Source of the DNA: a virus
Length of the DNA: 64,000 nucleotides
Virus record (IMG/VR): IMGVR_UViG_3300013426_000002
Coordinates: 36,818-100,817 of that record
Reading direction: 5' to 3' (one strand)
Part shown: one piece after another, positions 4,742 through 61,702 of the stretch
Numbering within the stretch: position 1 is the stretch's first letter
Layout of the letters: every line of letters starts with the position of its first letter
Position numbers and translations under genes: made by a program
The notes under the pieces: model-generated
What the model was told of the DNA's origin: nothing
The model's database searches: none
The model's input: the letters and a program-made list of their open reading frames with translations, nothing else

Positions 4742-4818
4742 ATTGGCACTTATTGTATTTATTTCCAATATTAGTGCTGTGTTAATCTGTGAAGGAATTG
4801 AAGCTATAGTAGAAGCAT

Positions 4819-6035: not shown

Positions 6036-6196
6036 AAAATTACGAAAAGATTAACGTTAAATTGGATGAACAGAATATGGTAGAAGAATTTAACCAAGTA
6101 GAATTAGATATTATGTTGTCTTGTGATGAATATAATGATATGATGACTTATGCTAGTACAAATGCATATGAAAATTTAATTTTACTTGAAGAATAA
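6032..6196 (+). CDS. Small acidic hypothetical protein (54 aa, below the ORF-track cutoff)
   Basis: ORF MKNYEKINVKLDEQNMVEEFNQVELDIMLSCDEYNDMMTYASTNAYENLILLEE*. Its ATG overlaps the upstream stop (ATGA) and its TAA overlaps the downstream ATG (TAATG), so it fills the gap exactly. Confidence 0.5.
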   Translation: MKNYEKINVKLDEQNMVEEFNQVELDIMLSCDEYNDMMTYASTNAYENLILLEE

Positions 6197-7710: not shown

Positions 7711-10700
7711 CTAAAAGATTGAAATCAAGTTATCATAATATTCTAACTTAGATCTTGGATCTCTTGCTTCATATATACTTCTTAGAGGAGTTGACTTAAT
7801 TAAGGATCGTTGGAATCGGTTTAAACCACGATATGGTCCTCTATTTATTTCTTGAAATGGATCTTGCAACGCTACAGTAGTTAAGTCTCCCCAATACTGT
7901 AACGTAGACCAAGCTGCTGTAGGACTATTAAGCATATTAAATACTTCAATAGGTAACACATTACCACGAGTTTCCAAAGAGGCTCTTAAAGTAAGATATG
8001 CTGCTTCTTGTTTCCACCAATTATCCCTGTCATCATCTGCCATAGCACGTATTATGGAAGAAATCAACCAGAAACCCAAAGTAGAAAATAAAAATTCATA
8101 TGTGACTCTCTTTAGGCAACCCTTTTCGTAATCATCTAATTCATCATAATGATCTTTATACAATTCTTTTAATTGATCAATCTTGCTTTTGTCAAAATAG
8201 TGTCTTTTTACATATTCATAAGCCGCAGGAATTTGCGCTTCATTCCACAATCCTGTAGAATAGTTGAATTGTCTCTTAGTTAAGAATTTTGTTTGCAGAT
8301 TAACCAAAATAAAATTACGGTATATTAATAATAACTGACCAATCAAATTGGAATGTAATTTTGATTTATCCAAATCTGATAACTGTGTGTCAATTCTAGT
8401 AGCAATTTGTTTAGTAGTGTTTTTTATTCTATTAGAAAGGTTTTCATCAACCACATTAGCATACTCTGGTTTTACTACTAATTGATTGTTTTTAACTTCA
8501 AAAGCATCAAAAAATGTGATATTTAATGCATTCCAAGCAGCTTTACCTTTTTTCTTATCTTTAAATCGTCTTAGAAATTGATTTTTATTTAAAAATTTAC
8601 CAGTTTCAGGATCATATTTATTGAAATATGCAACAGATAGTGCTAGTTTACCCTTAGTGATTATATCACCTATTTCGTGACCAAAATACCAATAATGTTG
8701 ATTTAGAGCTCGCAGTAAACGAGATTGGTTTAATTTACTAAATGTTTGTTCGTTGTCTCTAACTACACCCAAGTATTCAAGATAACACAATACCTTGTTT
8801 TTATTATTGGCTTTACCTATGTTTTTAATCGCATCTGCGTATGCTGGTAGTAAAGTCTTCGTTGCTTTGGCAAGTTCTTCATTTCCAAAGTAAATGCCAG
8901 AAATTGCTTCCAACCTGTTTTGAATTTTATTAGTAATTAAACCTGTCAAGATAACGTTTAAGTTCTGTGATATACCTTGAATTCTGGTATATGCTGCTAA
9001 GTTACTAACCAATTTATCTATGCTTACTCTTGCATGCTTACCTTTTGGTAACGGTATATTAACTTCTTTAGCATCTTTTTCCATACCGTAGACAAAACGA
9101 TTCATCAAATCCTTCATTTTGTCATAAGTTTTACTTTCTACTCCAGATATTCTGCCACCCTTTCTATCTTTAAAATCCATTCTACCAACAAAGTCCAAAG
9201 CTAACTCTAATTCAGGAGCAACTTCACTCATCTTTTCGTAGTTTACAGCCATTTTATAATAATGAATAATAGAACCTACTATATCGTTAGTTATGGCATC
9301 AGGATTGTCTAACATTTTGATATACCTTGTGGGTATTAATTTCACCAAAGAACCATCAGATCTTTTAGCATTTTCTAACATATATCTGTCATCATCATCT
9401 TTTACTGTATAAAGATCATGTGCAGCATACGCTATACCACTTAAGAAGTTATCTTTACTACGTATTTGAGTCCACGCACCACCTTCAATTTGAGGTAATT
9501 TATATTTATTAGCATATCTCAAAAAACCTATCTTAGAATTGGATAAGTCCATTACATCTGTTAAAGCATCGTATAATGCTTTTAATTTAGGATCACTAAC
9601 AATTTTGTTATAAGCAGCAGTGTTATCGAAGTACTTGATATTTGGTATTATTGTCTCACCACGATCTTCATATTTAGTAAATCTAGGATCATAAAATGGG
9701 GATTCTCTATCAATTTCTGCCCACGATTTATTTGGTATTCTTTCTACGTATTTTGATTTAAATTCATCCTTTGGAACTAGCTTACGCCAAAAAGAAGCAG
9801 GTACGATGTCACCCCGAGAAGTATATCTTGCATTTACAGAGAACCACGCGTTAAATGCAGCTTCACCCTGTTTCTCCATATGTTCGTATTCTTCGTAGAA
9901 TTTAGGGTTAATATTCCATTTAGCTATTTCCATTACTCTAGATTTTTTTTGTTTATCTCTATTTGCAATAGCTTCATCGGATATCATTACATCATAAGTG
10001 TTTATCATAGATTTAACGTTTTCAGGCATAGCGTCTACGTTAAATGTACCATCTTCTCTTGCATATAATTTTAAAAGATTTTTTCTAGCATTCTCATACA
10101 ATACTTGATTGTCAGATTTAATTGGATTTGAAGATAACATTTTAACGTCTTCCCAAAAATCTTCTTTTATTCTTTCAACAGAATTTCTTTGTTCCCATTT
10201 TTCAAACAGCTCTGGAGAAAGATTCTTTTTAGCAGCTTCTCTGGCTTTGTTGTATTTCTCCATATTTGGTTTATAATTCAACTTAGCTCTAAGTTTTTTA
10301 TTATATTGCTGCATTTCCTTGGCTATCTCCAAATCTAAACCTGCTTTTGTAGTGCCATCTGCATAAAAAGGATTTGCCAAATTACGTCTACCATTTTCTA
10401 ATTCTTGCAATTTGCCATAATCTTCATCGGATAATAATTCTCTATGTGGGTTACCATCTTTGTCCCTAGTTTTGTTAAGAAGTAGATTGATTTCCATATT
10501 AATTGTATCTCTTCTTGTTCTAGCTTCTTCACTAAGACTGTTGGTCAATTCGTAATATTCTGGTACAAATCTACGGATACTGTATTTAGAATGCCATTTG
10601 TTATTCTCGGTATTCCAAATTTTTAATTGCTCTTTATTTAATAGAGCAGGTACTTCTGATAAGTCTTTATCTCCAAATCCTAATTTATCCGCTAATTCTC

Positions 10701-13545
10701 TTTGAAATTTAAAAAGCTTTTGATAATGTTCACCGTAATTTAAATCTCTGGTCATAAATCCTGTTTTGTGACCATCTTTTGTTTTCTCATGGAAATAAGC
10801 CAGTTTAGATTTATCTACCTGATCTAACAATGATAATAACTCTTTACCTTTGATTCTTTCTTCATCTGCTACAGCATTCTTAACAGCGATTATTTTGTTC
10901 ATCATAATTCTAACTAATTCACTATTAGAATACTGTGTACTACCAACCCATTGATCCCACAAGTTAATATCTAAATCGCCTTCTTCCAGAATGTTTTTCA
11001 ATTGATCTACAGTATATGAACCAGCTTTAGTAGCTTCTTTAATAAAGTTATCTTTAGCAATTATATCAACTACATTATTGAAATTTCTAACAAGTTCTGC
11101 ATAATTGCCCATGATTCTTTTTAATGCTACTTTTGTATCATTAATCAATTGTTCATTATTGAAATAATCAAAAGTAGTATCATCATCTAGCATATTCTGC
11201 AAATTAGTAGCAATGTTGTTATAGAATCCAATATAACCTTTTTTAATCAGATCCAATTCAGCATTAGAGATTTCATGATCATTACCGTATTTAGCAGCTT
11301 CTTTTACTTTGGATAATATTCTTAAAGTTTCATATAATGCAGAATTGATATCTTGATCCATGTAATCTATGAATTCTAAAGTAGCTTTATCATTTTCTAA
11401 TTGATTTAATCTAAATTCTAAAGCTCTCAGTTCATCTAGTTTATTCGGATCTGTATATTTAGAATATTGGATGTCCTTCATTCTACGATGAATAGAAGAC
11501 ATTAATTTGTCATACGTATCATTCACAGCTTTTGGAGTTTCAACAACTTTTTGGTTGTGTATTTCTTTGCCAAAGAAATAAGAATTATCCAACGTACGAC
11601 CAGATAAAAATGCTTTTGTGATTTCGTTTAAAGTGTCTTGTTTTTCATTAAATAATCCTTTTATCCAATTAAAAAATCTATTATACCATTTTAATGCTTT
11701 AACAGAATTCTCACCTATTGCTTGTACTAAAGCTTCTTCGCTACCAAATTGTTTTATACCTCTTTGTACAATAGGCGCATTTCTAAACCAAGCAATGTAA
11801 TGATGAGCATATTCGTGAGGTAAGGTGTCTTGATTTTCTAATGCAGCATTTAATAATACTCTACCAGCCATATATCCTTCTACTTGGGCTTGTCCCCTAA
11901 GATTAGGGTTTGTTAATGCATCTATTTCAATGTTTGGATATATCTCTCGCAGTAATAAAGCTAATTCTTTATTTCTACCAGTAGCGTTTTGAGTAGCAGC
12001 TTCTTGATTATAAATATTATTATCCTGAGTAGAGAATGTACCTCGATTATCTATTGATTTAACTTGGCTTGATCTTCTAACTACTATTTCTCTAGCTTGT
12101 TCATTAGCTTCATAATTATGTTTTACTATAATACCATCTCTAAATACCCAATCATCGCGTCTGGTTTGTGGTATTGTATCTTCTTCTCTGAGGTTTAAGT
12201 ATGTAGCATATAAAGAATTACCTTCAGAAGCATACCTTTGTGCTAATTCTTGATTAGGAGTAAAATAAAAGCCAAAATCAAATTGCCCTCTTCTCTGATA
12301 GTTTTCATCAAAAGTGTCGAAAGTGGCAGAACTTCCATGATACACTACTAAAGGCTCTCCATTTTCATCTACTACTTTGGATACACTAGTTTTAGCTTTA
12401 TTTAAACTTTTCCAATTTTTAAAATCTTCAACATCTTGTTTTGTACCTAACAAATGAACATTTTCTTTCGGATTAAATACCACAATAACATCTGATTCAA
12501 ATTCATTATTTGCTTCATTAGATATAATTGCATCATTTTTATTTTGCTTGGCTTTAGTAAATAATCCTCGTTGTTCTTCATAATAAGTATTCTGATTTTT
12601 CTCTACAATTGGATTTTGTACATTGAGGACTGCTGGATACATCCCTTTTTTTACTTGTCTAGATTTCCAAGCATTTTGAAATTCAGATTTCTTTCTATTT
12701 ACCCAATCATTAAAGGTCTCTTTACCATATCTTATATCAAAGACTTCTTCAAAAAACTCTTTATCTGTTTTATCTTGATATCCGTATCTAGCTTTTCTTT
12801 CTGATAAATACTTTCCGTTAGAACCACCTTTGTCTCTATTAAATATACCTCTTTTATTTGGAGAATATTGCCTAATATTTGGACCTATTATCTCATTTTT
12901 CCAGTCATTAGACTCCATTCTACCATTACCAAGAGCCTCTTTTAATTCCCACCAGAGTTTGACCCAGTTATTATACCCTTCAGTATCAGGAATGTTTCTG
13001 TTTACACCAGAAATATATTGCAATGATGCCCAAGGCTGTTTGTTAAAATACATTTCTGCACCAGTTTCTGGAGCGCCAGATCCTTTACCTTTTTTGGAAT
13101 TAGCAACACCTTGAGATAGATCTGAATCTGTACCATGCCAATATATGGAGTCAATTAAAGAATTTGGATATATAGAATTTATATATTGTGTATATTCTTC
13201 TTTACTACCTACTTTAGATAACTCTGGGTTTATATCATACAAATAATCAACTGCGTCTTTGCTATTAATATCTGTTGATGTGTTACCAACCCAATCTCCA
13301 AACCAATTTCTAAAGCTTTCAGAGTAAGTTCTAGCTTTAGCTTGAATAGCAGCTACTCTATTACCATTATAATGCTCTAAAAGGTCTGAAAATAGCTTAG
13401 ATGGCTCCCCATTGGGAGCCTTATCTAAACCATAGCCATTGTTTTCTGAAAGAACATAATATGCAGCATTCTCACTACCTAATATTTCTGTATACTCTTT
13501 AAGTAAAGCTGCAACTTCTGGATTTTTAATATTTAAACACTGCAT
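7711..13545 (-). CDS. Giant (1944 aa) multidomain virion or ejected 'polyvalent'-type protein
   Basis: Uninterrupted 5.8-kb ORF. Contains WHGT and VVYHGSSATF...FGFYF (H-Y-E ADP-ribosyltransferase-like HG[ST] motifs, near 13125-13140 and 12303-12350). Contains an HExxH motif (LPHEYAHHY, near 11803-11817). The remainder is long and helical. Confidence 0.55.
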   Translation of the reverse strand: MQCLNIKNPEVAALLKEYTEILGSENAAYYVLSENNGYGLDKAPNGEPSKLFSDLLEHYNGNRVAAIQAKARTYSESFRNWFGDWVGNTSTDINSKDAVDYLYDINPELSKVGSKEEYTQYINSIYPNSLIDSIYWHGTDSDLSQGVANSKKGKGSGAPETGAEMYFNKQPWASLQYISGVNRNIPDTEGYNNWVKLWWELKEALGNGRMESNDWKNEIIGPNIRQYSPNKRGIFNRDKGGSNGKYLSERKARYGYQDKTDKEFFEEVFDIRYGKETFNDWVNRKKSEFQNAWKSRQVKKGMYPAVLNVQNPIVEKNQNTYYEEQRGLFTKAKQNKNDAIISNEANNEFESDVIVVFNPKENVHLLGTKQDVEDFKNWKSLNKAKTSVSKVVDENGEPLVVYHGSSATFDTFDENYQRRGQFDFGFYFTPNQELAQRYASEGNSLYATYLNLREEDTIPQTRRDDWVFRDGIIVKHNYEANEQAREIVVRRSSQVKSIDNRGTFSTQDNNIYNQEAATQNATGRNKELALLLREIYPNIEIDALTNPNLRGQAQVEGYMAGRVLLNAALENQDTLPHEYAHHYIAWFRNAPIVQRGIKQFGSEEALVQAIGENSVKALKWYNRFFNWIKGLFNEKQDTLNEITKAFLSGRTLDNSYFFGKEIHNQKVVETPKAVNDTYDKLMSSIHRRMKDIQYSKYTDPNKLDELRALEFRLNQLENDKATLEFIDYMDQDINSALYETLRILSKVKEAAKYGNDHEISNAELDLIKKGYIGFYNNIATNLQNMLDDDTTFDYFNNEQLINDTKVALKRIMGNYAELVRNFNNVVDIIAKDNFIKEATKAGSYTVDQLKNILEEGDLDINLWDQWVGSTQYSNSELVRIMMNKIIAVKNAVADEERIKGKELLSLLDQVDKSKLAYFHEKTKDGHKTGFMTRDLNYGEHYQKLFKFQRELADKLGFGDKDLSEVPALLNKEQLKIWNTENNKWHSKYSIRRFVPEYYELTNSLSEEARTRRDTINMEINLLLNKTRDKDGNPHRELLSDEDYGKLQELENGRRNLANPFYADGTTKAGLDLEIAKEMQQYNKKLRAKLNYKPNMEKYNKAREAAKKNLSPELFEKWEQRNSVERIKEDFWEDVKMLSSNPIKSDNQVLYENARKNLLKLYAREDGTFNVDAMPENVKSMINTYDVMISDEAIANRDKQKKSRVMEIAKWNINPKFYEEYEHMEKQGEAAFNAWFSVNARYTSRGDIVPASFWRKLVPKDEFKSKYVERIPNKSWAEIDRESPFYDPRFTKYEDRGETIIPNIKYFDNTAAYNKIVSDPKLKALYDALTDVMDLSNSKIGFLRYANKYKLPQIEGGAWTQIRSKDNFLSGIAYAAHDLYTVKDDDDRYMLENAKRSDGSLVKLIPTRYIKMLDNPDAITNDIVGSIIHYYKMAVNYEKMSEVAPELELALDFVGRMDFKDRKGGRISGVESKTYDKMKDLMNRFVYGMEKDAKEVNIPLPKGKHARVSIDKLVSNLAAYTRIQGISQNLNVILTGLITNKIQNRLEAISGIYFGNEELAKATKTLLPAYADAIKNIGKANNKNKVLCYLEYLGVVRDNEQTFSKLNQSRLLRALNQHYWYFGHEIGDIITKGKLALSVAYFNKYDPETGKFLNKNQFLRRFKDKKKGKAAWNALNITFFDAFEVKNNQLVVKPEYANVVDENLSNRIKNTTKQIATRIDTQLSDLDKSKLHSNLIGQLLLIYRNFILVNLQTKFLTKRQFNYSTGLWNEAQIPAAYEYVKRHYFDKSKIDQLKELYKDHYDELDDYEKGCLKRVTYEFLFSTLGFWLISSIIRAMADDDRDNWWKQEAAYLTLRASLETRGNVLPIEVFNMLNSPTAAWSTLQYWGDLTTVALQDPFQEINRGPYRGLNRFQRSLIKSTPLRSIYEARDPRSKLEYYDNLISIF

Positions 13546-17936: not shown

Positions 17937-18841
17937 CGCTACTACCTTATGATTTCCATAAGGGCTAGACTATATCTTCACTTTGATAGTGCTTCCCATT
18001 TCACCTTTCGGCTACACAGCGTGTGTGCGCTGACTCAAATCATATTGAATTTTATGAAGCATTGAAGGAATTTGTTCAACATATGGTTTTACGATGTCTA
18101 TAAACTTTATTCCTTCTTTTGTTCCACAGCATAAAGAATAACTGTTTTCTTTTTTACCTTCGTGAAACATGTAAAAATCAATATTCCAAACTTCTTTAAA
18201 GTAATCTATTATTGTTTGTAATTCCTCTTTTGGCATACAGGTTGCAATTTTTATATAGAAACCGTGAACTTTACCATTTGTTTTTCTATAATTTATATGT
18301 CCATCATCCATATACCAGATTGCAATTCCTTTAGCATCTAGTCTGTTTAATAGTTTTCTATTTCCCAATTTTTTATTAGGTTTATAAAAAACTCTTCGCA
18401 AGACTTTTATAAAAGGTATAATATTTAATTGAGTGTAATAAACTTTTTTACCTGTATTATAACCTTTAACACTGATGTATTCTTTTAAACCATTGTTTCG
18501 TAAACCAGCGTCTTTAAGTTGTTTTATTTTCCACTCAAGATAATCACGTTGTTCTTCACAATGACTTAATTTAAATACATTGTTATTGCTTATTGTTCCA
18601 TCACCAAGTAAAAGAGCTATCAATAAATTTCTAGATTCTTTAGTTATTTTTGTTTTCATACTTGCTATCCATTTAGGAAGCTTCCATTGAGTATTAGTCG
18701 TTGAACCTTCCGATTAGTTATATAGATAACGATCGGCTTGGCTGCTGGTTGCCCAATCCCTTGGATTTTTACTACACTTAGTACCTTAGGCTCTAAGGGG
18801 TTTCCAGCAATTAAAGAAGTTTTGTTTCGACTATTGTGTTA
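17937..18841 (-). mobile_element. Group I self-splicing intron carrying a LAGLIDADG homing endonuclease ORF in the P8 loop
   Basis: Read on the minus strand. P1 pairs exon UUCGAU with intron GUCGAA, with a U.G pair at the splice site. P element AAUUGCUGGAAA is at 18801-18812. Q element AACCAGCAGCC is at 18740-18750. R element GUUCAACGACUAAUA is at 18692-18706. S element AAGAUAUAGUC is at 17968-17978. P8 pairs GCUUCCUA with UGGGAAGC and brackets the ORF. The P9 hairpin is CCUUAUG-GAAAU-CAUAAGG. The terminal G is at 17937. Confidence 0.85.
18012..18659 (-). CDS. LAGLIDADG homing endonuclease (double-motif, intron-encoded)
   Basis: Two LAGLIDADG motifs: LIALLLGDGTIS and GIAIWYMDDGHI. About 215 aa. 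Lies inside the group I intron. Confidence 0.9.
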   Translation of the reverse strand: MKTKITKESRNLLIALLLGDGTISNNNVFKLSHCEEQRDYLEWKIKQLKDAGLRNNGLKEYISVKGYNTGKKVYYTQLNIIPFIKVLRRVFYKPNKKLGNRKLLNRLDAKGIAIWYMDDGHINYRKTNGKVHGFYIKIATCMPKEELQTIIDYFKEVWNIDFYMFHEGKKENSYSLCCGTKEGIKFIDIVKPYVEQIPSMLHKIQYDLSQRTHAV

Positions 18842-38950: not shown

Positions 38951-41107
38951 TTATTTTGCTTTTAGGGTTTGTAAATAGATGTAGGCTTTTATCATATCTT
39001 CTTTGGATAGGTATTTGCCATTAAAGAAAGCAATATTCTTTAGAGCCAATTGAGCATATTTATCGCCATTAATTCCAATGTTTAGTGAACCAACACTTGA
39101 TTCAGTTGTTTGTTCTTCCCTTTGTAAGTATTCTACCCAATTGCTATCATAAACTCTACCGTCAGAACAAAATGCTTTCAATGATTTTGTAGGGTAATTT
39201 TTCACTTTCATAGTAGAATTTAAGAACAACTGAGTTCCTGTAACAGCATTATAAACAAAGAAGGAATTTGGTTTGACTATTCCGGCTGCCACGTTAACAC
39301 TGTCCAGAAGTTCCCACTCTCCTACAACGGTAAAATCTTTATTTACATTAAATTTTGCTGATTCAATTTTATCATCCACCCCGTCAGTCACTAAATAACC
39401 TTCGTGATCGGGGATTTGCTCAACAGTAACAGTAGTACCTTCTGCATTTGGAACGGCGCAATACGTCCTAATATATAGTCGAAGTTGATTACCTGAACCT
39501 GTCATAGTGTGATCAATCTGATAAGTACCATCTTTATCAAATTCATATATAATATTAGAATCTCCCGTATACCCCTCCATTACACGAACTATCCAATTCG
39601 TTGTCAATCCTGTAATCTTTAACTTGAATTGAAATTTCGTTCCAATTGAAACTTCGGATGAGTATAAATTACAAGTAGATATCGATTGATTGACTGGCAT
39701 TACAGCTACAAATTTGTTATATTGTTTGCTTACGTTTGTAGCAGCTCCGTTATCTATACCCCATTCATTCCAATTGTAAGCATACTCCCCATATCCACTA
39801 TTCCCAGCAAACCCAAAGTTTGACAAAACAAGGTTATTACCATTACCCGTAATGTTGGCAATGGTAGCTCTACCTGTGTCTTCGTTGGTTTTGCCTGTTA
39901 CCGTCCAAGCCTGATCAAAGAACAACCAAGGATATTCTTTTTTATACCAATTGAGGACTTTTGTGTCTTCTTCGTCGGTTGTGAAATGACCGTTACAAAT
40001 TACTTGTCCAGCGATGGCAGCTTTGGCGTATTCCATCTTAGAACTCGTTGTCCATAGATAATATAATCCCGGATTTTCAACCAAAGAATTAGCATCTACA
40101 ACAATTGTCTCCCCTGTTAACAAGTTTTTTGCAACCATTTGAGTAGGCGTTCTTTTACAAGCAATAAGATTAAATCCATTAGAGAATTCTACAATTGCGC
40201 GTGTTCCTGCGGAATAATACATAAGCTTGTTCAGATTTTGATATTGAACATAAAAATCTTTTTTATAAGCCTTTCCACACAGTAACATATTCCTTGCCGG
40301 ATCTTCCTGAAACGGAATAAATGCAGTATATACAGTATATGTATCTTCAAAATCCAAATCCTTTTCGGTAACTGCACAATCATCTACACCGTCACCTATG
40401 ATAAAGCCGAGGTAATAAGGAAGCTGCTCAATGGTGATAGGAGTTGTTAACGTCAAAGGATTCTCTATTGTACCTTGCGAAGAAACAGCAAATATATAAA
40501 TTAATCCATCTTCTTGATTTGGAATATCAACATCATAAATGCCATCTGTGTTAATGGTAATCCTATTATCAAAATCCTTACTACTATACATTCTTAGCAA
40601 TCGGATTTCGCCGCTATTTATAGAATCACTAACTCCTGTTATTTTTAATCGACACTTAAATTGTGCCAATCTGATAACGGCATTTACTCTGGAATTATCT
40701 ATTTTCTCTATATACAAGGTGTCAGAAGAAATTTTAGCATTGACATTAGCCCCCGAATAATTTAAAATAGATTTTTTTGTAAAATCATAATCATACCCAT
40801 TACATCCAGACATTCCACTCCAAGCGAAATTCTTGAAAGTCAAGAACCTGCCCTTTCCATCTGCATCCTCCAAACTTGGATTCTTGGACATCTGTTCATT
40901 GGTGAGCCCTTTAAAGCTCCATCTCGTTACATCACCAGGTAATGTTGGGAAGGCATCTTCAGGAGTATATAGACCGTATTTACGTTGAGCCTGTTCCTCC
41001 ATCAGTTTAATGTAATCTGTATACCATTGCTTATAATCTAATACAGGACCTGCTACACTTATAGACTTATCAGTATCTTCTACATGTGTTACATAATGTT
41101 TCTTCAT
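38951..41107 (-). CDS. Tail or baseplate-associated structural protein (718 aa)
   Basis: Large beta-rich ORF in the tail gene block. Confidence 0.4.
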   Translation of the reverse strand: MKKHYVTHVEDTDKSISVAGPVLDYKQWYTDYIKLMEEQAQRKYGLYTPEDAFPTLPGDVTRWSFKGLTNEQMSKNPSLEDADGKGRFLTFKNFAWSGMSGCNGYDYDFTKKSILNYSGANVNAKISSDTLYIEKIDNSRVNAVIRLAQFKCRLKITGVSDSINSGEIRLLRMYSSKDFDNRITINTDGIYDVDIPNQEDGLIYIFAVSSQGTIENPLTLTTPITIEQLPYYLGFIIGDGVDDCAVTEKDLDFEDTYTVYTAFIPFQEDPARNMLLCGKAYKKDFYVQYQNLNKLMYYSAGTRAIVEFSNGFNLIACKRTPTQMVAKNLLTGETIVVDANSLVENPGLYYLWTTSSKMEYAKAAIAGQVICNGHFTTDEEDTKVLNWYKKEYPWLFFDQAWTVTGKTNEDTGRATIANITGNGNNLVLSNFGFAGNSGYGEYAYNWNEWGIDNGAATNVSKQYNKFVAVMPVNQSISTCNLYSSEVSIGTKFQFKLKITGLTTNWIVRVMEGYTGDSNIIYEFDKDGTYQIDHTMTGSGNQLRLYIRTYCAVPNAEGTTVTVEQIPDHEGYLVTDGVDDKIESAKFNVNKDFTVVGEWELLDSVNVAAGIVKPNSFFVYNAVTGTQLFLNSTMKVKNYPTKSLKAFCSDGRVYDSNWVEYLQREEQTTESSVGSLNIGINGDKYAQLALKNIAFFNGKYLSKEDMIKAYIYLQTLKAK

Positions 41108-41109: not shown

Positions 41110-41568
41110 TTATAAGTTATTTATTGTTATTGTTATTTTCTCATTATTATTTGTTGCCTTTTGAAGCATTGGTAGCAATTTGTTATAAGCTGCCGTAGAA
41201 TTAGATATCCAATCTTCAGTAATACCATCCCATGTACCTACTAATATACATCCTTCTGTGTCAGCTGTTTTATTCCCGGTATGTATACGTATACCTAAGA
41301 AATGAGGTACATTAAGTATTTCAGGCATGATGCGTTTAAAACGATTAGAATAGCTTAATTTCACTTCATACGTACCAGCAGGTACAGCAGTATTACCATA
41401 TACTTTTTCTTTACATTTGCATTCTTTACCTTTAGGTGTGTTTGGGCAGGTTTCAGGTAATGGTCTTACTGGATCTTCAAGGGTATCACATATATAAATA
41501 CCATCTACATGCAATTCCCCAATCGTGTATTTGTTAGTACGAAATATTCTATCTAATACTAATTCCAT
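41110..41568 (-). CDS. DUF5675-like / YkuD-fold-like putative peptidoglycan enzyme (endolysin candidate)
   Basis: GIRIHTGNKTADTEGCILVG resembles the H-x(n)-GC(I/V) catalytic His/Cys signature of L,D-transpeptidase (YkuD) folds. The N-terminus TIGELHVDGIYICDTLED is as I recall for DUF5675 proteins. Confidence 0.4.
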   Translation of the reverse strand: MELVLDRIFRTNKYTIGELHVDGIYICDTLEDPVRPLPETCPNTPKGKECKCKEKVYGNTAVPAGTYEVKLSYSNRFKRIMPEILNVPHFLGIRIHTGNKTADTEGCILVGTWDGITEDWISNSTAAYNKLLPMLQKATNNNEKITITINNL

Positions 41569-41903
41569 TAGATTATACTTTTAGCTACACTTGCTTTCAA
41601 TTTAGATCTAAAGTCTAAGAAGTCTTCATATCTCTTCTTACAGTTTTCATCTTCTGTTAAACCTAATTGAAATGCAAAATAATCATTTAACATCTTTAAT
41701 TGATAGTTAACATCCCAATTGTCGATCAATACATTTCTGATAATAGAATCATCATTTACATTTGATTCATTAATTATTACCTGTTCACATTCATAATACG
41801 TAGAATCACCATCTTTTACTTCTTTAATATTGTAATTGAAAGCGTAAGAATGATCATCTAACTTCTGTATCATTTCAGGACGTTCATCATACTGTGATTT
41901 CAT
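41568..41903 (-). CDS. Small acidic hypothetical protein (111 aa)
   Basis: ORF with overlapping stop and start to the downstream gene. Confidence 0.45.
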   Translation of the reverse strand: MKSQYDERPEMIQKLDDHSYAFNYNIKEVKDGDSTYYECEQVIINESNVNDDSIIRNVLIDNWDVNYQLKMLNDYFAFQLGLTEDENCKKRYEDFLDFRSKLKASVAKSII

Positions 41904-42041
41904 ATCTATTATTCTTTTTATAAAGTATTACAAAAGGATAACCTTTTAAATTACTTTCTATTAATAACCTTAATAATCTTGTACTTTTATTTTATTAGTT
42001 ATTTTTTGGCAAGAGCCAAGGTCATGTCGAAACCCGATAAA

Positions 42042-42110
42042 AATTTTATGAGAGCTGTAATTAGCATTTGTAGAAGCTACTGAATTATTCGAATTCACGT
42101 AACCGAGGCT
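42042..42110 (-). repeat. DGR-type template repeat (TR) candidate, non-coding
   Basis: A 69-nt copy of 42183-42251 in the same orientation. It is A-rich in coding sense and built from AAT codons. 19 of 20 mismatches to the gene copy lie at its adenines. Confidence 0.75.
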
Positions 42111-42170
42111 AGCAAAAGAGCCAATATACGCAAGACCACTGCTTTTCACCCGACATCAACCTGTTTACAT

Positions 42171-43661
42171 TTAAAGTCTACAAACTAGACGAGAGCCGCA
42201 ATAAGCAGTAGCAGAAGCCACCGAATAAAGCGAAGACACGCAGCCGAGGCCAGAAAGATTGTTAAAAGTCACAGAACCACCGTAGTACATCGTTTTTAAG
42301 GAAGAACTAGCAGTAGCAGTATGAAAGTAATCACATCTTCCCGTAGTGGAACTACCATTTGCAATTTTTGGAATAACTGTACCTAAATACGTATCACCTA
42401 CATAATTTGACTCTCTCGGTAATTGACCAAGTTCTACAAAATTGTTTGTGATTGCATCACCATAGTCAGCTTCACTTTTTGCAATGTAAATTGTACTTGT
42501 ACCACCATCTTCATCAGTCTTAATATCAAAGATTATACCATCTATATTTTTGAAAATATGACCAAACGGATTTTCAATACCTCTGTATCTTGGTACTTTC
42601 ACTTTTACAGCACTGGTATCAAAAGAACTTGGTAAAGTGTATTCAACCTCTCCTGTGTTGTTACCAAGACTATCTGAAGTACCACAAGGTACGAGAGGAT
42701 AATAATTATTAAATGCACTCCACTTAGCATCTGTTATCGTTGATACGACACTTCCCAGTCCACCTTGTTTAAAACCATCTGTAGTCAATGCATTATTAAA
42801 GGCTAACTGACAATTCCAATTTGCATATTCAATTGAATACAACAACCATATCGTATTTACGGCAGTAAAGTCAAACATGTTCCAATTGGTACCAGCAGCT
42901 CTATTTCTAGCATATTTTCTAAAATTTGCTCTAGAAGTTGCAGTCAGTGGCATACCGAGTTGAGTGTTTTCAGCATCATCTATTGCAGCATTATTGTTAC
43001 CACCTCTAAATTCAGCAGTGGTATTAACTACTGAAGCTAATTTCAAAGTAGTAGCATCAGTTCTATCAACAGTTGCTTCGTAAGCTGAAACATATTGTTT
43101 CTTAACTAAAGTATATCCTTCCAATGGGTACTCAGAAATTCTCATACTGTCCACACCATTCTCTGAAGAGAATTTAGTATAGAATTCAGGAATTTCTATC
43201 ATTACCATACCATCAGAACCATCTTTTACAATAGTTGTTCCATCTTCGTTTGCTGTCCAATCATTATTAAAGTAATGATTAACTGTACCATCATCAGCCA
43301 GAGTACATCCTCTCATCTTATTCTGGATTGGAAGAGAACGATGTAAATCAAGGTTACCTATTCTAGTTAATACTGGATTTAAAGAACCAGACTGCCAAGA
43401 TACACCATAAGAATACAGAGCTTCTGCATTAGGTATATCTGTAACATCTAATTTAACCTGATCCAATAACTTATTGTTTACCAAAACCCATTCCTTACCA
43501 TTGAAGTATTTCAAATCTCCGCCATATGGATTTGATGCGAGATCTGCCCAATACTTAACAGATGCAGGATTAGGTTTGATTGTGCTTCCTAATATATCGT
43601 ATTTATTGTTATAAGTATTCATACATGTATAAAATAAAAAAGGTTGACTAGAAATAGCCAA
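42171..43661 (-). CDS. Tail fibre / receptor-binding protein (496 aa), candidate DGR target
   Basis: Beta-rich fibre-like ORF. The last 23 codons before the final three (...GLGCVSSLYSVASATAYCGSRLV, followed by CRL*) form the variable repeat. The GSRLV ending is reminiscent of the G(F)R(L/V) end of C-type-lectin/FGE-fold DGR targets. Confidence 0.65.
   Translation of the reverse strand: MAISSQPFLFYTCMNTYNNKYDILGSTIKPNPASVKYWADLASNPYGGDLKYFNGKEWVLVNNKLLDQVKLDVTDIPNAEALYSYGVSWQSGSLNPVLTRIGNLDLHRSLPIQNKMRGCTLADDGTVNHYFNNDWTANEDGTTIVKDGSDGMVMIEIPEFYTKFSSENGVDSMRISEYPLEGYTLVKKQYVSAYEATVDRTDATTLKLASVVNTTAEFRGGNNNAAIDDAENTQLGMPLTATSRANFRKYARNRAAGTNWNMFDFTAVNTIWLLYSIEYANWNCQLAFNNALTTDGFKQGGLGSVVSTITDAKWSAFNNYYPLVPCGTSDSLGNNTGEVEYTLPSSFDTSAVKVKVPRYRGIENPFGHIFKNIDGIIFDIKTDEDGGTSTIYIAKSEADYGDAITNNFVELGQLPRESNYVGDTYLGTVIPKIANGSSTTGRCDYFHTATASSSLKTMYYGGSVTFNNLSGLGCVSSLYSVASATAYCGSRLVCRL
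42183..42251 (-). repeat. DGR-type variable repeat (VR) candidate inside the fibre gene 3' end
   Basis: Partner of 42042-42110. See the DGR finding. Confidence 0.75.
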
Positions 43662-47802: not shown

Positions 47803-49062
47803 TTATGTAGTTTCCACTTCTTTGTTACCTTTGTAAGGTAGTAAGGCTAAAGGAACATTATTATATGCGCTGGTTTTGGATGCAGAAACCACAACTTTAG
47901 TACTCATATCATATGCGTATTCTGTTGTCGGAGTACTTCCAGTCGAAGTCCAGTAATATGTGATACCTGTGGTATTGAAATTATTTAATCCAATTAAAGC
48001 AGAATAGGAATTGATTGTGTCTACATTTTCTACTATTTTACTCCATTCACCAAGAGATCCTACAAAACCTGTAGAACCATTGCCGATTGAAAAATTTGTA
48101 GCATATGATGCTGCGTATTCTGTACTCTGTTTTAATAGTAACTTTGTATTAATTCTTCCAGCATAATCTTTTAAAGCGTAGTCGGAATTTCCAACAGCAT
48201 AAAGCATATTTGCATTACTTGCTGGGCCTACACCTGCATATTTAGTTCTCTCTTTAGAGATCAGAAATTGAGTTTCATCTGTTACTAAAGCAACACCTAT
48301 TGCGTCAGATGATGCTTTACCAGAAGCTGTCCATTGAGTATCTGTGTAATAATTATTATCTTTATCACATATATAAATTCCATTATCTATATGATTGTAT
48401 TTCACTGTACAAAATGGACGTACCCAGCCAATAGAACTCTTATACGGTGAACTGATATAAACATTTGTACTGGCATCCATTTGATAAGTCGAATTCAAAT
48501 CTTTTTGAGTAGAGCTTATCACAGGATCTTCACCTGTATCTTCTAATTCTGTTCCACCTACGTTCTGTAAAGCATCCGTTAAATCCGTAAAACTAACGCA
48601 AGAAGCCATTAATTGACCTAAGGCAGGTAAATACCAACTACCTGCAGGGAATCCTTCTGTAGAATATTCAGCACAAGCTTTAGCAGCTAAAGCAGAGTTG
48701 CCCAATTGTGCAATGATTTTCTCAGTATTGGTTTTACCATCAAAGTCAAGTCTAGCTACAGCTTTGTCTGTAGTTGTAACTATATCTGAAATTAGAGTGC
48801 CAGTGCCACCAAACGTAGTTTTACTTGTAGAAGTGTTGTGCAATGCCATAAAGTCAAATTCCATACTACGTACATCTGTAATAACACCAACACAAGTTTT
48901 AGAGCCATCGTGCAAAGTTGACCAAGTCCCATCACTATATACGTAATCATACACTTTTGGTCTATAACGAACCTCATGTGGATAAATTTTAGTACTACCC
49001 AAATACATTGCCGTTACAGGAGTACTACCAACATATGCTTTTGTAATATCTAAATTTGTCAT
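47803..49062 (-). CDS. Tail fibre or adhesin-like protein with a DUF1566-like motif (419 aa)
   Basis: [12 protein letters not shown] matches the W.LP...EL core I recall for DUF1566 (Lcl C-terminal) domains. Lies in the fibre gene cluster. Confidence 0.45.
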
Positions 49063-51650
49063 TCTGTAATTATATAAAGAGTATTAGAATTTGGATTAGT
49101 TGTGCTATCGTACTGTGCTTGCGTTAATTGTTTTATAGTGTGGATTTCATCACTTGCGACCGTGTTGGGAGTAACATATGTACCAGCATCAGTGAGAAAC
49201 TTAGTGCCATCACCATTAGTATACAACACCACATTGTTAGTAACACCTTGTACAGACTTACTTGTTTTTGTTATTGTAAGCATGATAGGACTAAAGCTAA
49301 TACCTTGTTCTGAAACAGTTGAAGTTGTAATTACAATTGAAATAATTGAATTATTTACAAGTAACATCATAGGCATTGCTATCTGATTATAATATCCAAC
49401 AGAGCATTTTTTATCATAAGCATCTTGTGCAGCAGCAATAAATGCATCTGTAGTAGTACTAACTGTGTCACCGCTTTCAGTAAACAATGGAGATAAATCT
49501 AGATACGGAGCATTAGTAAGGTAACTACCTTTAGGTTGATACGTACTAGCAGCATCTGTTTTAGTTAGATAACCTGTAAGATCAACTGTTTCACTAAGTT
49601 TATCCCAAGTTGGTGTAGTGGATGTAGCAACATAATTTGCACCAGTATCTTCAAGATTATATACATCACCTATTACTACATTTGTGGTAGGTAGTGCAGC
49701 ATAATTCGCTACAGAACCTTTAACACGATATACAGATGCAACGGCTGTGTTTATTTTTGTATCTACTTGAGACTCTGTAATAATAGTAGGTTTATTCAAT
49801 ATCTGTGCATCACCTGATGTAGCATTCCAATCTGATTTAACATTTACTTGTGCCCCAGTTGCAATACCTGTCAATTTGTTTTTTTCAGCAGTAGTATAGT
49901 CATTAGTACTTAACTGTTTACCCGTAACTGCATCTACCTTCTTTGCTAATTCTGCGTTGACATATGTAGTATCGGCTTTACCAGATATTTGACCAACAAC
50001 ATCTACAGAAGCTACAGTATCATCTACATATTTCTTTGTAGCTGGATGATATTCTTTTGTAGGTGTAAAAGACATAGTATTAGTCTTTGCAATATAAAAC
50101 GAATTGTGATCGTGAGTTTTTATAGTACCTGTAAGAACAGCTTCTACATTAGCTTTAGTTACATTTGCATCACTCCCGGGATCTCCTTTATCACCTTTCT
50201 CTCCCTGATCTCCTTTAGGACCCTGTGCCCCAGTACTTCCTGTTTCACCCTTAGGTCCTTGAGCACCAGTTTCACCTTTAGGACCAGCAGGACCTTGTTC
50301 TCCCTGTGGACCTTTAATGCTACCTACATTACTCCATTTAGGATTAGTTGTTACATTACCATTCTCACCAACATATACATACAGATTACCGGAAATCAAA
50401 TAAGCATCCCCTTCTGTTCCCGTAGATGGTAATTCTGACTCAGCAGACAATTCTCCTTTGATGTTTACTCCAGATCCATTATCTCCTTTGTCACCCTTGT
50501 CACCTTTAGTTCCTTTGGGTATACCAAAGTTAAATACAGCAGCATTAGATGTACCAGAGTTTGTTATTGTTACAGATGATGTAGGATCTAAGGTAGTAAC
50601 AGTACCCAAAGTAATAGTAGCAGCAGTGCCTGGATCACCTTTAGCCCCAGTTTCTCCTTTTGCTCCTTGACTACCAGTATCACCTTTTTCACCTTTGTCG
50701 CCTTTTACACCCTGAACACCTTGGTCTCCCTTATCGCCTTTCTCACCTTGAACACCTTGGATACCTTGAATACCTTGTGAACCTGTAGCTCCTTTATCCC
50801 CCTTATCTCCTTTTTCTCCTTTTAATGAAGTTAACCATGCATTTTCATCTCCTTCAAAGCCATGTTGAACAGCAACCTGATATGCAGATAAACCTTGGAT
50901 ACCTTGAGCACCAGAAAGATCTGATATAAACTTCCACTCACTATCACCTTTTAAATACAAACGAGAGTCTTCTTCATCCTGTACATTGCCAGTGTCTATC
51001 ATTACAAATTGTCCCACACTAACTTCAGGATCATTGTAATTAAGTTTCATATTAGCAACAGAAGGATATGTTTTAACTATAGTAAAAGCATCACCAACGG
51101 CTTTAATACCCGTATCGGTATATACTTTCTTATTATAATCATAAAATCTCCAAGTACCATTAACAATCATAGGTGGATTTTCTACCATTTCTGTAGCTTG
51201 AGTTAAAGCTTTATTAGCATCATCTACTGCATTTATAGCAGAGATAATTTGATTGCTAAAGTCTTCTTCAGAACCTTCAAACCCATTATCTACAGCATAA
51301 TCGTATGCAGTCTTACCGTAAGCTTGTGCTTTGCTGTCTATGTACTCATTAGAAATACTATCGAAAACATACCAGTTGCCATTCTCACCTATGTATGGAT
51401 TCTTACCAGTTGCTTCTATACCGGTATCACGATTGTCTACCCACCAGTTACCATTAGATCCAATCTTTGGAGCTACTGCATCTTCACTAGTAGTCTCTGT
51501 TAATTTAACCCATGACTTAATATCTGGATTAAATACTTTAATTACCTTACCTTTTGAATTTGCTCCCAAGTCTATCCAGTACCCAACCTCATTGGAGTTA
51601 GGTACTGTGTAGCTTGCAAAGAATTCATAATATACATTATTCTTTATCAT
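49059..51650 (-). CDS. Collagen-like tail fibre (863 aa)
   Basis: Long uninterrupted G-X-Y tracts ([34 protein letters not shown]... and [46 protein letters not shown]). Confidence 0.8.
50175..50312 (-). repeat. Collagen G-X-Y tract 2 (about 46 residues)
   Basis: Residues 447-492 of the 863-aa protein, with Gly at every third position. Confidence 0.85.
50628..50819 (-). repeat. Collagen G-X-Y tract 1 (about 64 residues)
   Basis: Residues 278-341 of the 863-aa protein. A further short tract lies at about 50475-50513. Confidence 0.85.
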
Positions 51651-60823: not shown

Positions 60824-61702
60824 TTATTGTTTATATCTCCAGATATATTTAATTTTTTTAAGAAATTTTGGATCTTTTAATTTATCATCATTTTCGCCAT
60901 TACAATAAGTGGTAATGGTCTTTGCGCTAATACCTGTCTGTCTTACAGCTTCAGCAATACTATAATACTCTCCAAGAATATTATAATTTTTATCGTATTG
61001 AATTACTGCTTTTGGAGCACTTAACGATGTTCCATCAACAGTTTTAAGTTTTGCTTTTTCTTCAAAAAATTTTTCAGATACTGTTCTTACTCTAGGTTTT
61101 GGCTTCCAATCTGTCGGATCAATTTGTAAAGGAACGTCAGGATAATCTTTCTTATATACCCAAATATAAGGATTAGCTTTTGATTGCGTTTTTATTGCTT
61201 TCTTAAGACTTCTAATAATACTCGCTCTACATACTCCGGTTTTCTTTTCTGCAGAAGCCATACTTTCGTATTCACAGATGAATTTACCAGATAATGAGTA
61301 TTGAATCAAAGCAGAATAAAATTTAGACATATCCTTGCCTTTATGCGCAGCACTTATCTTTGCTTTTGTATTTTCGGTATGAAACATAATATCTCCACCG
61401 CAATCGCTGTTGTAACCATATTCAGAATTGTTTGAGTGATAATATTCAATCCATTTCTTTTCTAGCTGTTTTGCTTCTTCCAAATCTTCTGTAGAATCTA
61501 TGACTTCTACTGAAAATCCTTCCAAACCAAATTCAGCCAATGCTTTGTGAAAATTATATTGGGAACCACTCAAGGCTTTATATAAATGCTTTTTCATTCT
61601 AGCACCTACACCTTGAGTGGTCACACCTATATAATACTTGCCATTAAATTTATTAGTGGCTTTGTAAATGTCAAAATTCTTAATTTCGTTATCTGTACAC
61701 AT
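60824..61702 (-). CDS. GIY-YIG homing endonuclease (free-standing, Seg/I-TevI-like)
   Basis: The GIY-YIG core is IYKATNKFNGKYYIGVTTQGVGARMKKHLY. Two NUMOD1/IENR1-like HTH units follow (YESMASAEKKTGVCRASIIRSLKK and YYSIAEAVRQTGISAKTITTYCNG). Confidence 0.85.
   Translation of the reverse strand: MCTDNEIKNFDIYKATNKFNGKYYIGVTTQGVGARMKKHLYKALSGSQYNFHKALAEFGLEGFSVEVIDSTEDLEEAKQLEKKWIEYYHSNNSEYGYNSDCGGDIMFHTENTKAKISAAHKGKDMSKFYSALIQYSLSGKFICEYESMASAEKKTGVCRASIIRSLKKAIKTQSKANPYIWVYKKDYPDVPLQIDPTDWKPKPRVRTVSEKFFEEKAKLKTVDGTSLSAPKAVIQYDKNYNILGEYYSIAEAVRQTGISAKTITTYCNGENDDKLKDPKFLKKIKYIWRYKQ

What the first reader, a model, noticed from the sequence alone, without database searches (positions are those of the whole stretch)
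42042..42251. DGR signature: a non-coding template-like repeat with adenine-specific mismatches to the 3' end of the 496-aa fibre gene
Just 3' of the stop codon of minus-strand gene 42171..43661 lies a 69-nt non-coding copy (42042-42110) of the gene's own 3' end (42183-42251). The copy has the same orientation and an offset of 141 nt.

Written in coding sense:
- Copy: AGC CTC GGT TAC GTG AAT TCG AAT AAT TCA GTA GCT TCT ACA AAT GCT AAT TAC AGC TCT CAT AAA ATT
- Gene: GGC CTC GGC TGC GTG TCT TCG CTT TAT TCG GTG GCT TCT GCT ACT GCT TAT TGC GGC TCT CGT CTA GTT

My hand alignment gives 20 mismatches. In 19 of them the non-coding copy carries A, so 19 of its 23 adenines differ. The only exception is GGT versus GGC. 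The variable positions in the copy are AAT/AAY-type codons, the classic template design.

The variable block is the extreme C-terminus of a putative receptor-binding protein (...VSSLYSVASATAYCGSRLV, followed by CRL*). Homology ends abruptly on both sides. This is the TR(A) to VR(N) pattern produced by diversity-generating retroelements.
Basis: partly seen in the sequence, partly recalled or inferred. Interest (0 to 1): 0.9.

Follow-up and report, generated by a model that had tools for sequence, protein, structure and literature searches.

The report
Fossil DGR lacking its reverse transcriptase
The repeat is a genuine template/variable repeat pair of a diversity-generating retroelement in a crAss-like gut phage tail protein, but the reverse transcriptase gene that drives it has been deleted, so it is most likely a frozen relic of a kind already described in crAss-like phages.

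Summary
On the minus strand, 42042-42110 (TR) copies 42183-42251 (VR) at an offset of 141 nt. There are 20 mismatches in 69 nt, and 19 lie at TR adenines (P = 3.5e-12). VR is the C-terminus of a 483-aa tail protein whose AlphaFold model (pLDDT 93) best matches solved DGR variable proteins (TaqVP, Mtd, TvpA).

The window is a crAss-like phage, about 80% identical in nucleotides to Culoivirus cr55_1 and cr1_1. Relatives (cr55_1, L020, seven IMG/VR contigs) carry the full cassette at this locus: target-VR, the same 141-nt offset, TR, about 115 nt of spacer, then an RT with IGNYLSQ and YADD motifs. Their TR is constant and every VR differs at TR adenines.

In the window about 1.2 kb is missing. 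Only 53 nt of spacer and the last 33 RT codons (41988-41890) remain. Four independent assemblies share this junction. No RT was found in the 64 kb or in 10 kb beyond. This VR allele is the only one recorded, on 6-9 contigs. The 5' third of the TR has also lost 11 adenines. Other relatives carry independent RT/TR deletions.

Verdict: a decayed DGR cassette. Incomplete cassettes are already published for crAss-like phages.

The parts
42171..43622 (-). Target gene: a 483-aa tail (fibre) protein. The DGR variable-protein-type domain spans residues ~60-480, and VR lies at the extreme C-terminus.
   Evidence: The exact 483-aa product is on record on 6-9 public contigs. It matches PHROG 5302 'tail protein' at 3e-101. 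The AF2 model has pLDDT 93.3, and its top PDB matches are TaqVP 5vf4, Mtd 1yu0-4 and TvpA 2y3c. There are 2005 representative homologues sharing the ~420-aa domain ending in ...GSRL(V/C)(Y/F).
42183..42251 (-). VR (variable repeat), the part still cognate with the TR. It encodes GLGCVSSLYSVASATAYCGSRLV.
   Evidence: There are 20 mismatches to the TR and 19 lie at TR adenines, P = 3.5e-12.
42252..42290 (-). Former 5' part of VR. It is no longer cognate with this genome's TR: the mismatches are not adenine-specific.
   Evidence: Extended alignment. In L019 and L020 the VR/TR adenine pattern continues through this stretch.
42042..42110 (-). TR (template repeat), the intact adenine-rich 3' two-thirds. 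It is non-coding.
   Evidence: It differs from the TR of L019 at only 2 positions, both in 42099-42110, and is identical over 42042-42098.
42111..42149 (-). Corrupted 5' third of the TR. Its adenines have been replaced, so it looks VR-like and is no longer a template for diversification.
   Evidence: Over the first 50 nt of the TR (42149-42100), the window differs from the L019 TR at 12 positions, 11 of them L019 adenines, P = 4e-5. Ten of the 12 differences lie in this part; the other two are in 42100-42110.
41989..42041 (-). Remnant of the non-coding TR-RT spacer: the first 53 nt of about 115 nt. The conserved hairpin TTGGC-TCTT-GCCAA is kept and the second conserved hairpin is lost.
   Evidence: Sequence comparison and RNAfold of the spacers of six RT+ loci. 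The blastn breakpoint is at 41989.
41890..41988 (-). Pseudogene remnant of the DGR reverse transcriptase, its last 33 codons (KSTRLLRLLIESNLKGYPFVILYKKNNRYEITV*). The deletion junction lies at about 41988/41989.
   Evidence: tblastn with the L020 RT matches residues 381-413 at 88% identity, E = 6e-12. The translation is. blastn joins window 41989 to both cr55_1 L001:4814 and L001:6001. The same junction occurs in L010, L011 and L019.
41568..41903 (-). 111-aa gene whose start overlaps the end of the RT (or RT remnant). It travels with the cassette. Its function is unknown.
   Evidence: It is present in every cassette-bearing locus and absent from cr1_1, which lacks the cassette. It matches PHROG 11557, unknown function. 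It has no Pfam hit. The single-sequence AF2 model is low-confidence and is not a four-helix bundle.

Best explanation
This is the relic of a diversity-generating retroelement in the tail-protein module of a crAss-like (Culoivirus-like, Suoliviridae) gut phage.

In the ancestral cassette, still intact in relatives, the order is: target gene with VR, a 141-nt offset, TR, about 115 nt of spacer, RT, then a 111-aa gene. The TR-spacer RNA was reverse-transcribed by the adjacent RT with random misincorporation opposite adenines. The cDNA then replaced VR, rewriting about 20 codons of the ligand-binding face of the C-terminal variable-protein fold.

In this genome a ~1.2-kb deletion removed the distal half of the spacer and RT codons 1 to ~380. 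TR, VR and the target gene survive, but nothing in cis can copy the TR. The 19 adenine-specific differences are therefore the frozen record of the last mutagenic homing event or events.

Further decay is visible. The 5' third of the TR has lost 11 adenines, either through VR-to-TR gene conversion or through mis-homing of a mutagenised cDNA into the TR. The 5' part of VR is no longer cognate with the TR. VR alleles now change in this lineage by homologous recombination of ~0.9-kb patches with other phages, not by retrohoming.

Shown: the repeat statistics, the deletion and RT remnant, intact and diversifying cassettes in relatives, a single VR allele in this lineage, the recombination patch and the fold.

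Inferred: that mutagenic homing has stopped, the order of events, and how the TR was corrupted.
For: - **Repeat pair.** 19 of 20 mismatches lie at TR adenines, P = 3.5e-12.
- **Complete cassette in cr55_1.** It sits at the same locus with the same 141-nt VR-TR offset. The blastn breakpoints put a ~1187-nt gap in the window relative to cr55_1.
- **RT remnant.** The last 33 RT codons are retained at 41988-41890.
- **Closest RT+ relative.** L020 has a 413-aa RVT_1 protein with IGNYLSQ and YADD.
- **No RT in the window.** tblastn found nothing else. Pfam found no RT on the ORFs scanned directly, nor among the precomputed hits for window genes on matching contigs. There is also none in the 10 kb beyond the window's capsid end.
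- **Junction is real.** The same junction appears in four independent assemblies (window, L010, L011, L019).
- **Single VR allele.** The exact 483-aa protein is a one-member 90% cluster seen on 6-9 contigs.
- **Relatives diversify.** Eight RT+ loci share one TR but have eight different VRs, with 12-23 nt pairwise differences. Of 28 variable columns, 26 lie at TR adenines.
- **Recombination, not homing.** The window and L019 are 100% identical in more than 7 kb of flanks but 70-90% identical over 42990-42110, including non-VR codons.
- **TR corruption.** The 5' part of the TR differs from the L019 TR at 12 positions, 11 of them adenines.
- **Recurrent loss.** Independent RT/TR deletions occur in L030 and in L031/L033.
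- **Fold.** The top PDB hits are DGR variable proteins.
- **Literature.** Incomplete DGR cassettes are common in crAss-like phages (PMC7290462; PMC12386605).
Against: - About 25 kb of the ~100-kb genome (early and replication genes) was not seen for this exact lineage, so a second RT elsewhere is not excluded. Relatives cr55_1 and L022 have none there.
- The near-perfect adenine specificity (one non-A mismatch in 69 nt) means little drift since the last homing event. The loss is therefore recent, or activity continues in trans.
- 'One VR allele on 6-9 contigs' may reflect few independent hosts. Several samples are SRR17470xx runs, which have consecutive accession numbers and may come from one project.
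- No read-level data were available to test within-sample VR polymorphism.
Confidence: 0.8

Rival explanations
1. The cassette is still active, with the RT supplied in trans. The RT would come either from another RT gene in the unseen ~25 kb of the genome or from a co-infecting RT+ relative. In the latter case the helper's RT copies this TR RNA, or the helper's own TR-cDNA homes into this VR.
For: - TR, VR and the proximal spacer hairpin are intact and nearly free of non-adenine drift.
- RT+ relatives with near-identical spacer sequences are abundant in the same habitat.
- Genomes sharing one deletion carry different VRs: the window versus L019 and L031 versus L033.
- From my own knowledge, not tested here: DGR homing works in trans in the Bordetella phage system.
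Against: - In both pairs the VR differences come with differences in adjacent non-VR codons, which indicates imported recombination patches.
- Only one VR allele is on record for this lineage.
- The distal half of the TR-RT spacer, including a conserved hairpin, is deleted.
- No RT was found in about 75 kb examined.
- Relatives carry their only RT at this locus.
Confidence: 0.12
2. This is an ordinary tandem duplication of the gene's 3' end that has drifted, and the adenine bias is coincidental or compositional.
For: The repeat is direct, short and AT-rich, as is the genome.
Against: - The hypergeometric P is 3.5e-12.
- The mismatches include transversions to all three other bases.
- Relatives have the homologous repeat next to a DGR-type RT, with population hypervariability confined to TR-adenine columns.
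- An RT remnant is present.
Confidence: 0.01
3. The missing RT is an assembly artefact, a collapsed or mis-joined contig.
For: The window comes from an uncultured assembly, and repeats such as VR/TR can break assemblies.
Against: The identical junction is found in independent ENA and Logan assemblies from different samples (L010, L011, L019). The breakpoints are not at the VR/TR repeat. Other, different RT deletions exist in relatives.
Confidence: 0.02

Closest known systems
DGR cassettes of crAss-like phages, complete and incomplete (crAssphage LMMB and genus I Alpha-crAss genomes; Morozova et al. 2020, PMC7290462)
   Same: The architecture is target gene-VR / TR / RT without avd, at the 3' end of the tail-gene cluster, with a tail-fibre target. 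Most genomes of that group (66 of 91) carry incomplete cassettes with truncated RT and with or without TR/VR. That is the same phenomenon as here.
   Different: This is a different family (Suoliviridae/Culoivirus-like rather than Intestiviridae genus I). The target protein also differs: a ~420-aa domain and 483 aa in total. Here both TR and VR survive intact while the RT is almost entirely gone, and the TR itself shows adenine-specific erosion.
DGR of uncultured phage cr55_1 (NC_055869; Culoivirus intestinalis) and the L020 contig
   Same: The locus is orthologous, with a 72-78% identical target, the same 141-nt VR-TR offset, a homologous TR and spacer, and the same downstream 111-aa and DUF5675 genes.
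   Different: These relatives keep a 413-441-aa RT (as annotated or called) with IGNYLSQ/YADD and show population-level VR diversification. The window lacks the RT and shows one VR allele.
Bordetella phage BPP-1 DGR (Mtd / TR / Brt / Avd), the prototype
   Same: It shows adenine-specific TR-to-VR information transfer into the C-terminal face of a receptor-binding protein. The Mtd structures are among the top structural matches.
   Different: No avd homologue was detected. The gene order differs. No RT is present here. IMH and IMH* were not defined.
TaqVP (PDB 5vf4) and TvpA (PDB 2y3c), solved DGR variable proteins
   Same: They are the best structural matches to the predicted target protein (E = 2.5e-6 and 1e-2).
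   Different: Sequence identity is only about 11%, and a profile search of PDB sequences found nothing. The TM-scores are modest (0.25-0.46) because the phage protein carries a much larger domain.

Membership tests
Diversity-generating retroelement (DGR) | A TR/VR repeat pair whose differences are almost exclusively at TR adenines | tested here: met
   19 of 20 mismatches lie at TR adenines over 69 nt, P = 3.5e-12.
Diversity-generating retroelement (DGR) | VR lies at the 3' end of a target gene encoding a DGR variable-protein (C-type-lectin-like) fold | tested here: met
   VR ends 4 codons before the stop. The AF2 model has pLDDT 93. The top PDB hits are TaqVP, Mtd and TvpA.
Diversity-generating retroelement (DGR) | A DGR-type reverse transcriptase (RVT_1 with the (I/L)GxxxSQ motif) encoded next to the TR | tested here: not met
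   Only the last 33 codons remain, at 41988-41890. There is no other RT in the window. The feature is met in relatives L020 and cr55_1 (IGNYLSQ, YADD).
Diversity-generating retroelement (DGR) | An invariant TR that serves as the master copy | tested here: not met
   The 3' 69 nt are conserved. The 5' ~39 nt differ from the L019 TR at 11 adenines plus 1 other position.
Diversity-generating retroelement (DGR) | Population hypervariability confined to VR positions that face TR adenines | tested here: not met
   The window lineage has one allele, a 1-member cluster on 6-9 contigs. The feature is met in RT+ relatives: 8 loci have 8 VRs, and 26 of 28 variable columns lie at TR adenines. No read-level data were available.
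Diversity-generating retroelement (DGR) | IMH at the 3' end of VR and IMH* at the 3' end of TR, plus a nearby hairpin that directs homing | tested here: inconclusive
   VR and TR diverge immediately after ...GTT/ATT. A 5-bp inverted repeat GTCTA-N5-TAGAC overlaps the end of VR, seen by reading the sequence, but it is imperfect in cr55_1. There is no functional definition of these elements for this family.
Diversity-generating retroelement (DGR) | An accessory protein (Avd or an HRDC protein) | tested here: not met
   No Avd/23S_rRNA_IVP hit was found in the neighbouring genes. The 111-aa neighbour is modelled as beta-hairpins plus two helices at low confidence. avd is also absent from published crAss DGRs of RT lineage 3, so this feature is not obligatory.
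Crassvirales (Suoliviridae, Culoivirus-like) | Nucleotide similarity and synteny to classified members, together with crAss-specific structural proteins | tested here: met
   Nucleotide identity to cr1_1 and cr55_1 is 78-84%. Pfam finds CrAss_Ring_1, CrAss_Ring_2, crAss_MUZ and Crass_capsid.

The most novel reading that the evidence does not exclude
RT-less cassettes such as this one might not be dead. With an intact VR and homing site, they could be diversified in trans during co-infection with the abundant RT+ relatives. They would then act as 'cheaters' that keep the benefit of a DGR without paying for it.

Related to this, the adenine-specific erosion of TRs seen here (42111-42149), and in an RT+ relative (L008/L034), would be a natural record of mutagenised cDNA homing into the template itself.
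Probability: 0.1. Interest if true: 0.55.

Novelty: new member of a known kind. Interest (0 to 1): 0.25.

Why it matters
The finding shows that DGR detectors that start from the RT will miss cassettes like this one. It also shows that a clean adenine-specific TR/VR signature does not prove current activity.

For crAss-like phages it adds a Suoliviridae-type example of recurrent DGR loss: at least three independent RT deletions in one clade. After the loss, tail-protein diversity is maintained by recombination of VR-bearing patches. That is useful context for interpreting tail-fibre variation in gut viromes.

It does not reveal a new mechanism.

Tried and rejected
- **Lineage searches in IMG/VR and JGI.** I searched by exact junction, TR, corrupted-TR and VR patterns. 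All returned nothing. The lineage is only in ENA and Logan assemblies.
- **Look-up with the TTG start.** The 496-aa protein is not on record. The ATG start giving 483 aa is on record.
- **Completing the genome to look for an RT.** The look-up from the capsid gene gave 10 kb more, with no RT. Look-ups from window genes at the left end gave only short contigs or contigs ending there. A homologue search with cr55_1 gp094 led to L022, a different strain that is 94% identical in the overlap and has no RT in 21 kb. About 25 kb therefore remains unseen for this lineage.
- **The 111-aa neighbour as an Avd-like accessory protein.** It has no family hit beyond PHROG 11557, and the single-sequence AF2 model is poor (pLDDT 55) and not a helical bundle. 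The idea is not supported, but it is not settled either.
- **Sequence-profile search of PDB.** A 125-sequence alignment of the target gave 0 hits. Only the structural search found the DGR variable proteins.
- **VR differences between RT-less genomes as evidence for trans-homing.** I rejected this as the main reading because adjacent non-VR codons differ too.
- **NCBIfam classification of the relatives' RT.** It gave only sub-threshold hits to group II intron, Drt3a and retron models. The library returned no DGR-specific model.
Full report
**1. The observation**

In minus-strand sense, 42042-42110 is an ungapped 69-nt copy of 42183-42251 at an offset of 141 nt. There are 20 mismatches. Nineteen have A in the non-coding copy (A>G 9, A>T 6, A>C 4) and one is T>C. 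Only 4 of the copy's 23 adenines are unchanged.

Given 23 A positions among 69, the hypergeometric probability of at least 19 of 20 mismatches falling on them is 3.5e-12. A scan of the whole window for same-strand 69-mers with at least 45 matches at offsets of 70-399 nt returns this pair as the best hit. The only others are two collagen-like repeats near 50670.

Two details need amending.
- The gene starts most plausibly at ATG 43622, giving 483 aa. That exact product is on record in public gene calls, whereas the 496-aa TTG version is not.
- The homology does not stop abruptly on the 5' side (see section 5).

**2. What the genome is**

The window is a crAss-like phage. It is 78-84% identical in nucleotides to uncultured phages cr1_1 and cr55_1 (Crassvirales; Suoliviridae; Boorivirinae; Culoivirus) and syntenic with them. 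It encodes CrAss_Ring_1, CrAss_Ring_2, the crAss muzzle protein and the crAss capsid protein. The finding lies at the downstream end of the tail-gene cluster.

**3. Relatives carry the complete element at this locus**

In cr55_1 (L001) the order of features is as follows:
- tail protein (572 aa) with VR at 4521-4611;
- TR at 4662-4752, at the same 141-nt offset;
- an annotated reverse transcriptase at 4778-6103;
- a 111-aa gene, then a DUF5675 gene.

The closest RT+ relative of the window's target is L020 (target 78% identical). It has a 413-aa RVT_1 protein in the same place. Both RTs carry IGNYLSQ, the (I/L)GxxxSQ motif used as a DGR RT hallmark (as stated in PMC12386605), and YADD.

Seven IMG/VR contigs of the cr55 type plus cr55_1 itself share an essentially constant TR but have eight different VRs. 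These differ pairwise at 12-23 nt, and 26 of the 28 variable VR columns face TR adenines. The element is therefore a functioning DGR in this phage group.

**4. In the window the RT is gone**

blastn joins window 41989 to both L001:4814 and L001:6001, so about 1.19 kb is missing.

What remains downstream of the TR:
- 53 nt of the ~115-nt TR-RT spacer (42041-41989). The conserved hairpin TTGGC-TCTT-GCCAA is retained and a second conserved hairpin is lost.
- The last 33 codons of the RT (41988-41890). They read KSTRLLRLLIESNLKGYPFVILYKKNNRYEITV* and are 88% identical to the C-terminus of the L020 RT.

The remnant shows that this is a deletion here rather than an insertion in the relatives. The same junction is present in independent assemblies L010 (ENA ERZ808285), L011 (Logan SRR1747030) and L019 (ENA ERZ26859170). 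It is therefore not an assembly artefact.

No RT was found elsewhere in the sequence examined:
- tblastn with two DGR RTs finds nothing else in the 64 kb.
- Pfam scans of window ORFs show no RVT domain, and neither do the precomputed Pfam hits for window genes on matching contigs.
- The 10 kb beyond the capsid end of the window (L017) has no RT.

About 25 kb of the ~100-kb genome, the early and replication genes, could not be retrieved for this lineage. Relatives cr55_1 and L022 have no RT there.

**5. Signs of decay and of what replaced the DGR**

(a) *One VR allele.* The window's 483-aa protein is a single-member 90%-identity cluster found on 6-9 contigs. This contrasts with the unique VR in every RT+ genome.

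(b) *VR change by recombination.* The sister genome L019 has the same deletion junction. It is 100% identical to the window from 49600 to 43000 and from 42100 to 40900, but only 70-90% identical across 42990-42110. That patch includes many non-VR codons. The two VR alleles therefore differ because a ~0.9-kb patch was exchanged by homologous recombination, not because of retrohoming after the deletion. The pair L031/L033 shows the same pattern: a shared deletion, different VRs and adjacent non-VR differences.

(c) *Corrupted TR.* L019 has a full-length TR of about 107 nt, cognate with its own VR throughout. The window's TR matches it at all but two positions (both in 42099-42110) over the 3' 69 nt. 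Over the first 50 nt the two differ at 12 positions, 11 of which are adenines in L019 (P = 4e-5). The 5' third of the window's TR (42111-42149) has thus itself been rewritten at adenines. This most simply reflects VR-to-TR gene conversion or mis-homing of a mutagenised cDNA.

Against the L019-type TR, the window's 69-nt VR has adenine-type mismatches only.

An RT+ relative (L008/L034) shows a similar patch of seven adenine-specific changes in its TR.

(d) *Non-cognate 5' VR.* The 5' part of the window's VR (42252-42290) carries several non-adenine differences from any TR seen.

(e) *Recurrent loss.* RT loss has happened repeatedly. L030 lacks L001:4708-5988 and L031/L033 lack L001:4713-5796, both also removing the 3' half of the TR. 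Counting these loci, 3 of 10 IMG/VR loci found through the 111-aa gene are RT-deleted.

**6. The target protein**

A search of 1.84 billion representative proteins finds 2005 homologues. They share a ~420-aa C-terminal module on varied N-termini and end in ...GG.A..G..AG...S...(VR)...GSRL(V/C)(Y/F).

With a 125-sequence alignment, AlphaFold2 gives pLDDT 93.3 and pTM 0.87.

Foldseek against the PDB ranks three families of solved DGR variable proteins first:
- Thermus TaqVP (5vf4, E = 2.5e-6);
- Bordetella phage Mtd (1yu0-1yu4);
- Treponema TvpA (2y3c).

Against BFVD the best hits are crAss-like phage proteins and 'tail collar fiber' proteins. A sequence-profile search of the PDB found nothing. 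PHROGs calls the protein a tail protein.

**7. Mechanism, with steps marked shown or inferred**

- *Shown in relatives, inferred for the ancestor of this genome.* TR-spacer RNA is reverse-transcribed by the adjacent RT with adenine-specific misincorporation, and the cDNA replaces VR.
- *Shown here.* The RT and the distal spacer are deleted, TR, VR and the target are intact, there is a single VR allele, VR exchange occurs by recombination, and the TR is eroded.
- *Inferred.* The VR is now frozen. The near-absence of non-adenine drift means the loss is recent.

The main rival is continued diversification in trans, by an RT elsewhere in the genome or from a co-infecting RT+ relative. I put this at about 0.1. 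It is not excluded, but the single allele, the truncated spacer and the recombination signature all argue against it.

**8. Comparison with what is known**

DGRs with the architecture target-VR/TR/RT and no avd have been described in crAss-like phages. In genus I Alpha-crAss genomes, 15 of 91 had complete cassettes and 66 of 91 had incomplete cassettes with truncated target and RT genes, with or without VR and TR (PMC7290462). [quoted passage not shown]

The present case is thus another member of a known kind, in a different family. Its particular state is that TR and VR are both preserved, the RT is reduced to 33 codons, and the TR is partly adenine-depleted.

As a DGR it passes the TR/VR and target-fold criteria. 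It fails the RT, TR-invariance and population-hypervariability criteria. It works like a DGR only in the past tense.

**9. Verdict**

Novelty is low (new member of a known kind) and interest is about 0.25.

The most novel reading still open is trans-diversification of RT-less cassettes, with natural cDNA homing into templates as the source of TR erosion. I put its probability at about 0.1.

Noticed in passing
L008:1400-1500 (same contig as L034), TR of an RT+ cr55-type cassette: The TR of this RT-positive relative differs from the clade's consensus TR at seven positions, all of them adenines (A>G five times, AA>TC once). The changes form one patch, as if VR-like information had overwritten part of the template.
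   Followed up: partly
window 41568-41903 (-): This 111-aa gene starts inside the last codons of the RT or its remnant. It is present in every cassette-bearing relative and absent from cr1_1, which lacks the cassette. It belongs to PHROG 11557 (unknown function) and is not recognisably Avd. It may be a cassette-associated accessory gene.
   Followed up: partly
window 48100-47900, 40900-40500 and 39900-39000 (compared with L019 and L010): Genomes that are otherwise 100% identical differ in sharply bounded patches inside tail-fibre-like genes, for example the C-terminal part of the 718-aa gene at 38951-41107. This indicates frequent modular recombination of receptor-binding regions.
   Followed up: partly
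L030:3880-3910; L031 and L033:3700-3730: Two further independent deletions in cr55-type phages remove the RT together with the 3' half of the TR. The junctions lie inside the TR. L031 and L033 also carry frame-breaking indels in the RT remnant.
   Followed up: yes
L001:4778-4861 (cr55_1 annotation); window 42025-41999: The annotated cr55_1 RT start (MTLALAKK...) probably lies in the conserved non-coding TR-RT spacer. The L020 RT as called, and the conserved alignment, begin at MKR..., 84 nt downstream. In the window the same ATG gives only an 8-codon ORF.
   Followed up: partly
window 18012-18659 (-), 60824-61702 (-), 3594-4082 (+); L017:2375-6043: The genome carries many homing-endonuclease genes: LAGLIDADG_2 between the giant virion-RNAP-region genes, a GIY-YIG/NUMOD1 gene next to the capsid gene, and an HNH/NUMOD4 gene. 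The portal-position gene on the matching contig is 1222 aa with Hom_end_hint domains, which suggests an intein.
   Followed up: no
window 7711-13545 (-): This 1944-aa protein has a precomputed Pfam hit to ART-PolyVal, a polyvalent ADP-ribosyltransferase domain.
   Followed up: no
window 50665-50760, inside gene 49059-51650 (-): Short tandem-like repeats at offsets of 72 and 90 nt correspond to collagen triple-helix repeats (Pfam Collagen) in an 863-aa tail protein.
   Followed up: no
window 1-100; L013-L016: Four independent short assemblies all begin within about 90 nt upstream of the 100-aa gene at 88-390. This suggests a strain-variable or repeat boundary just upstream of the window's start.
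   Followed up: no
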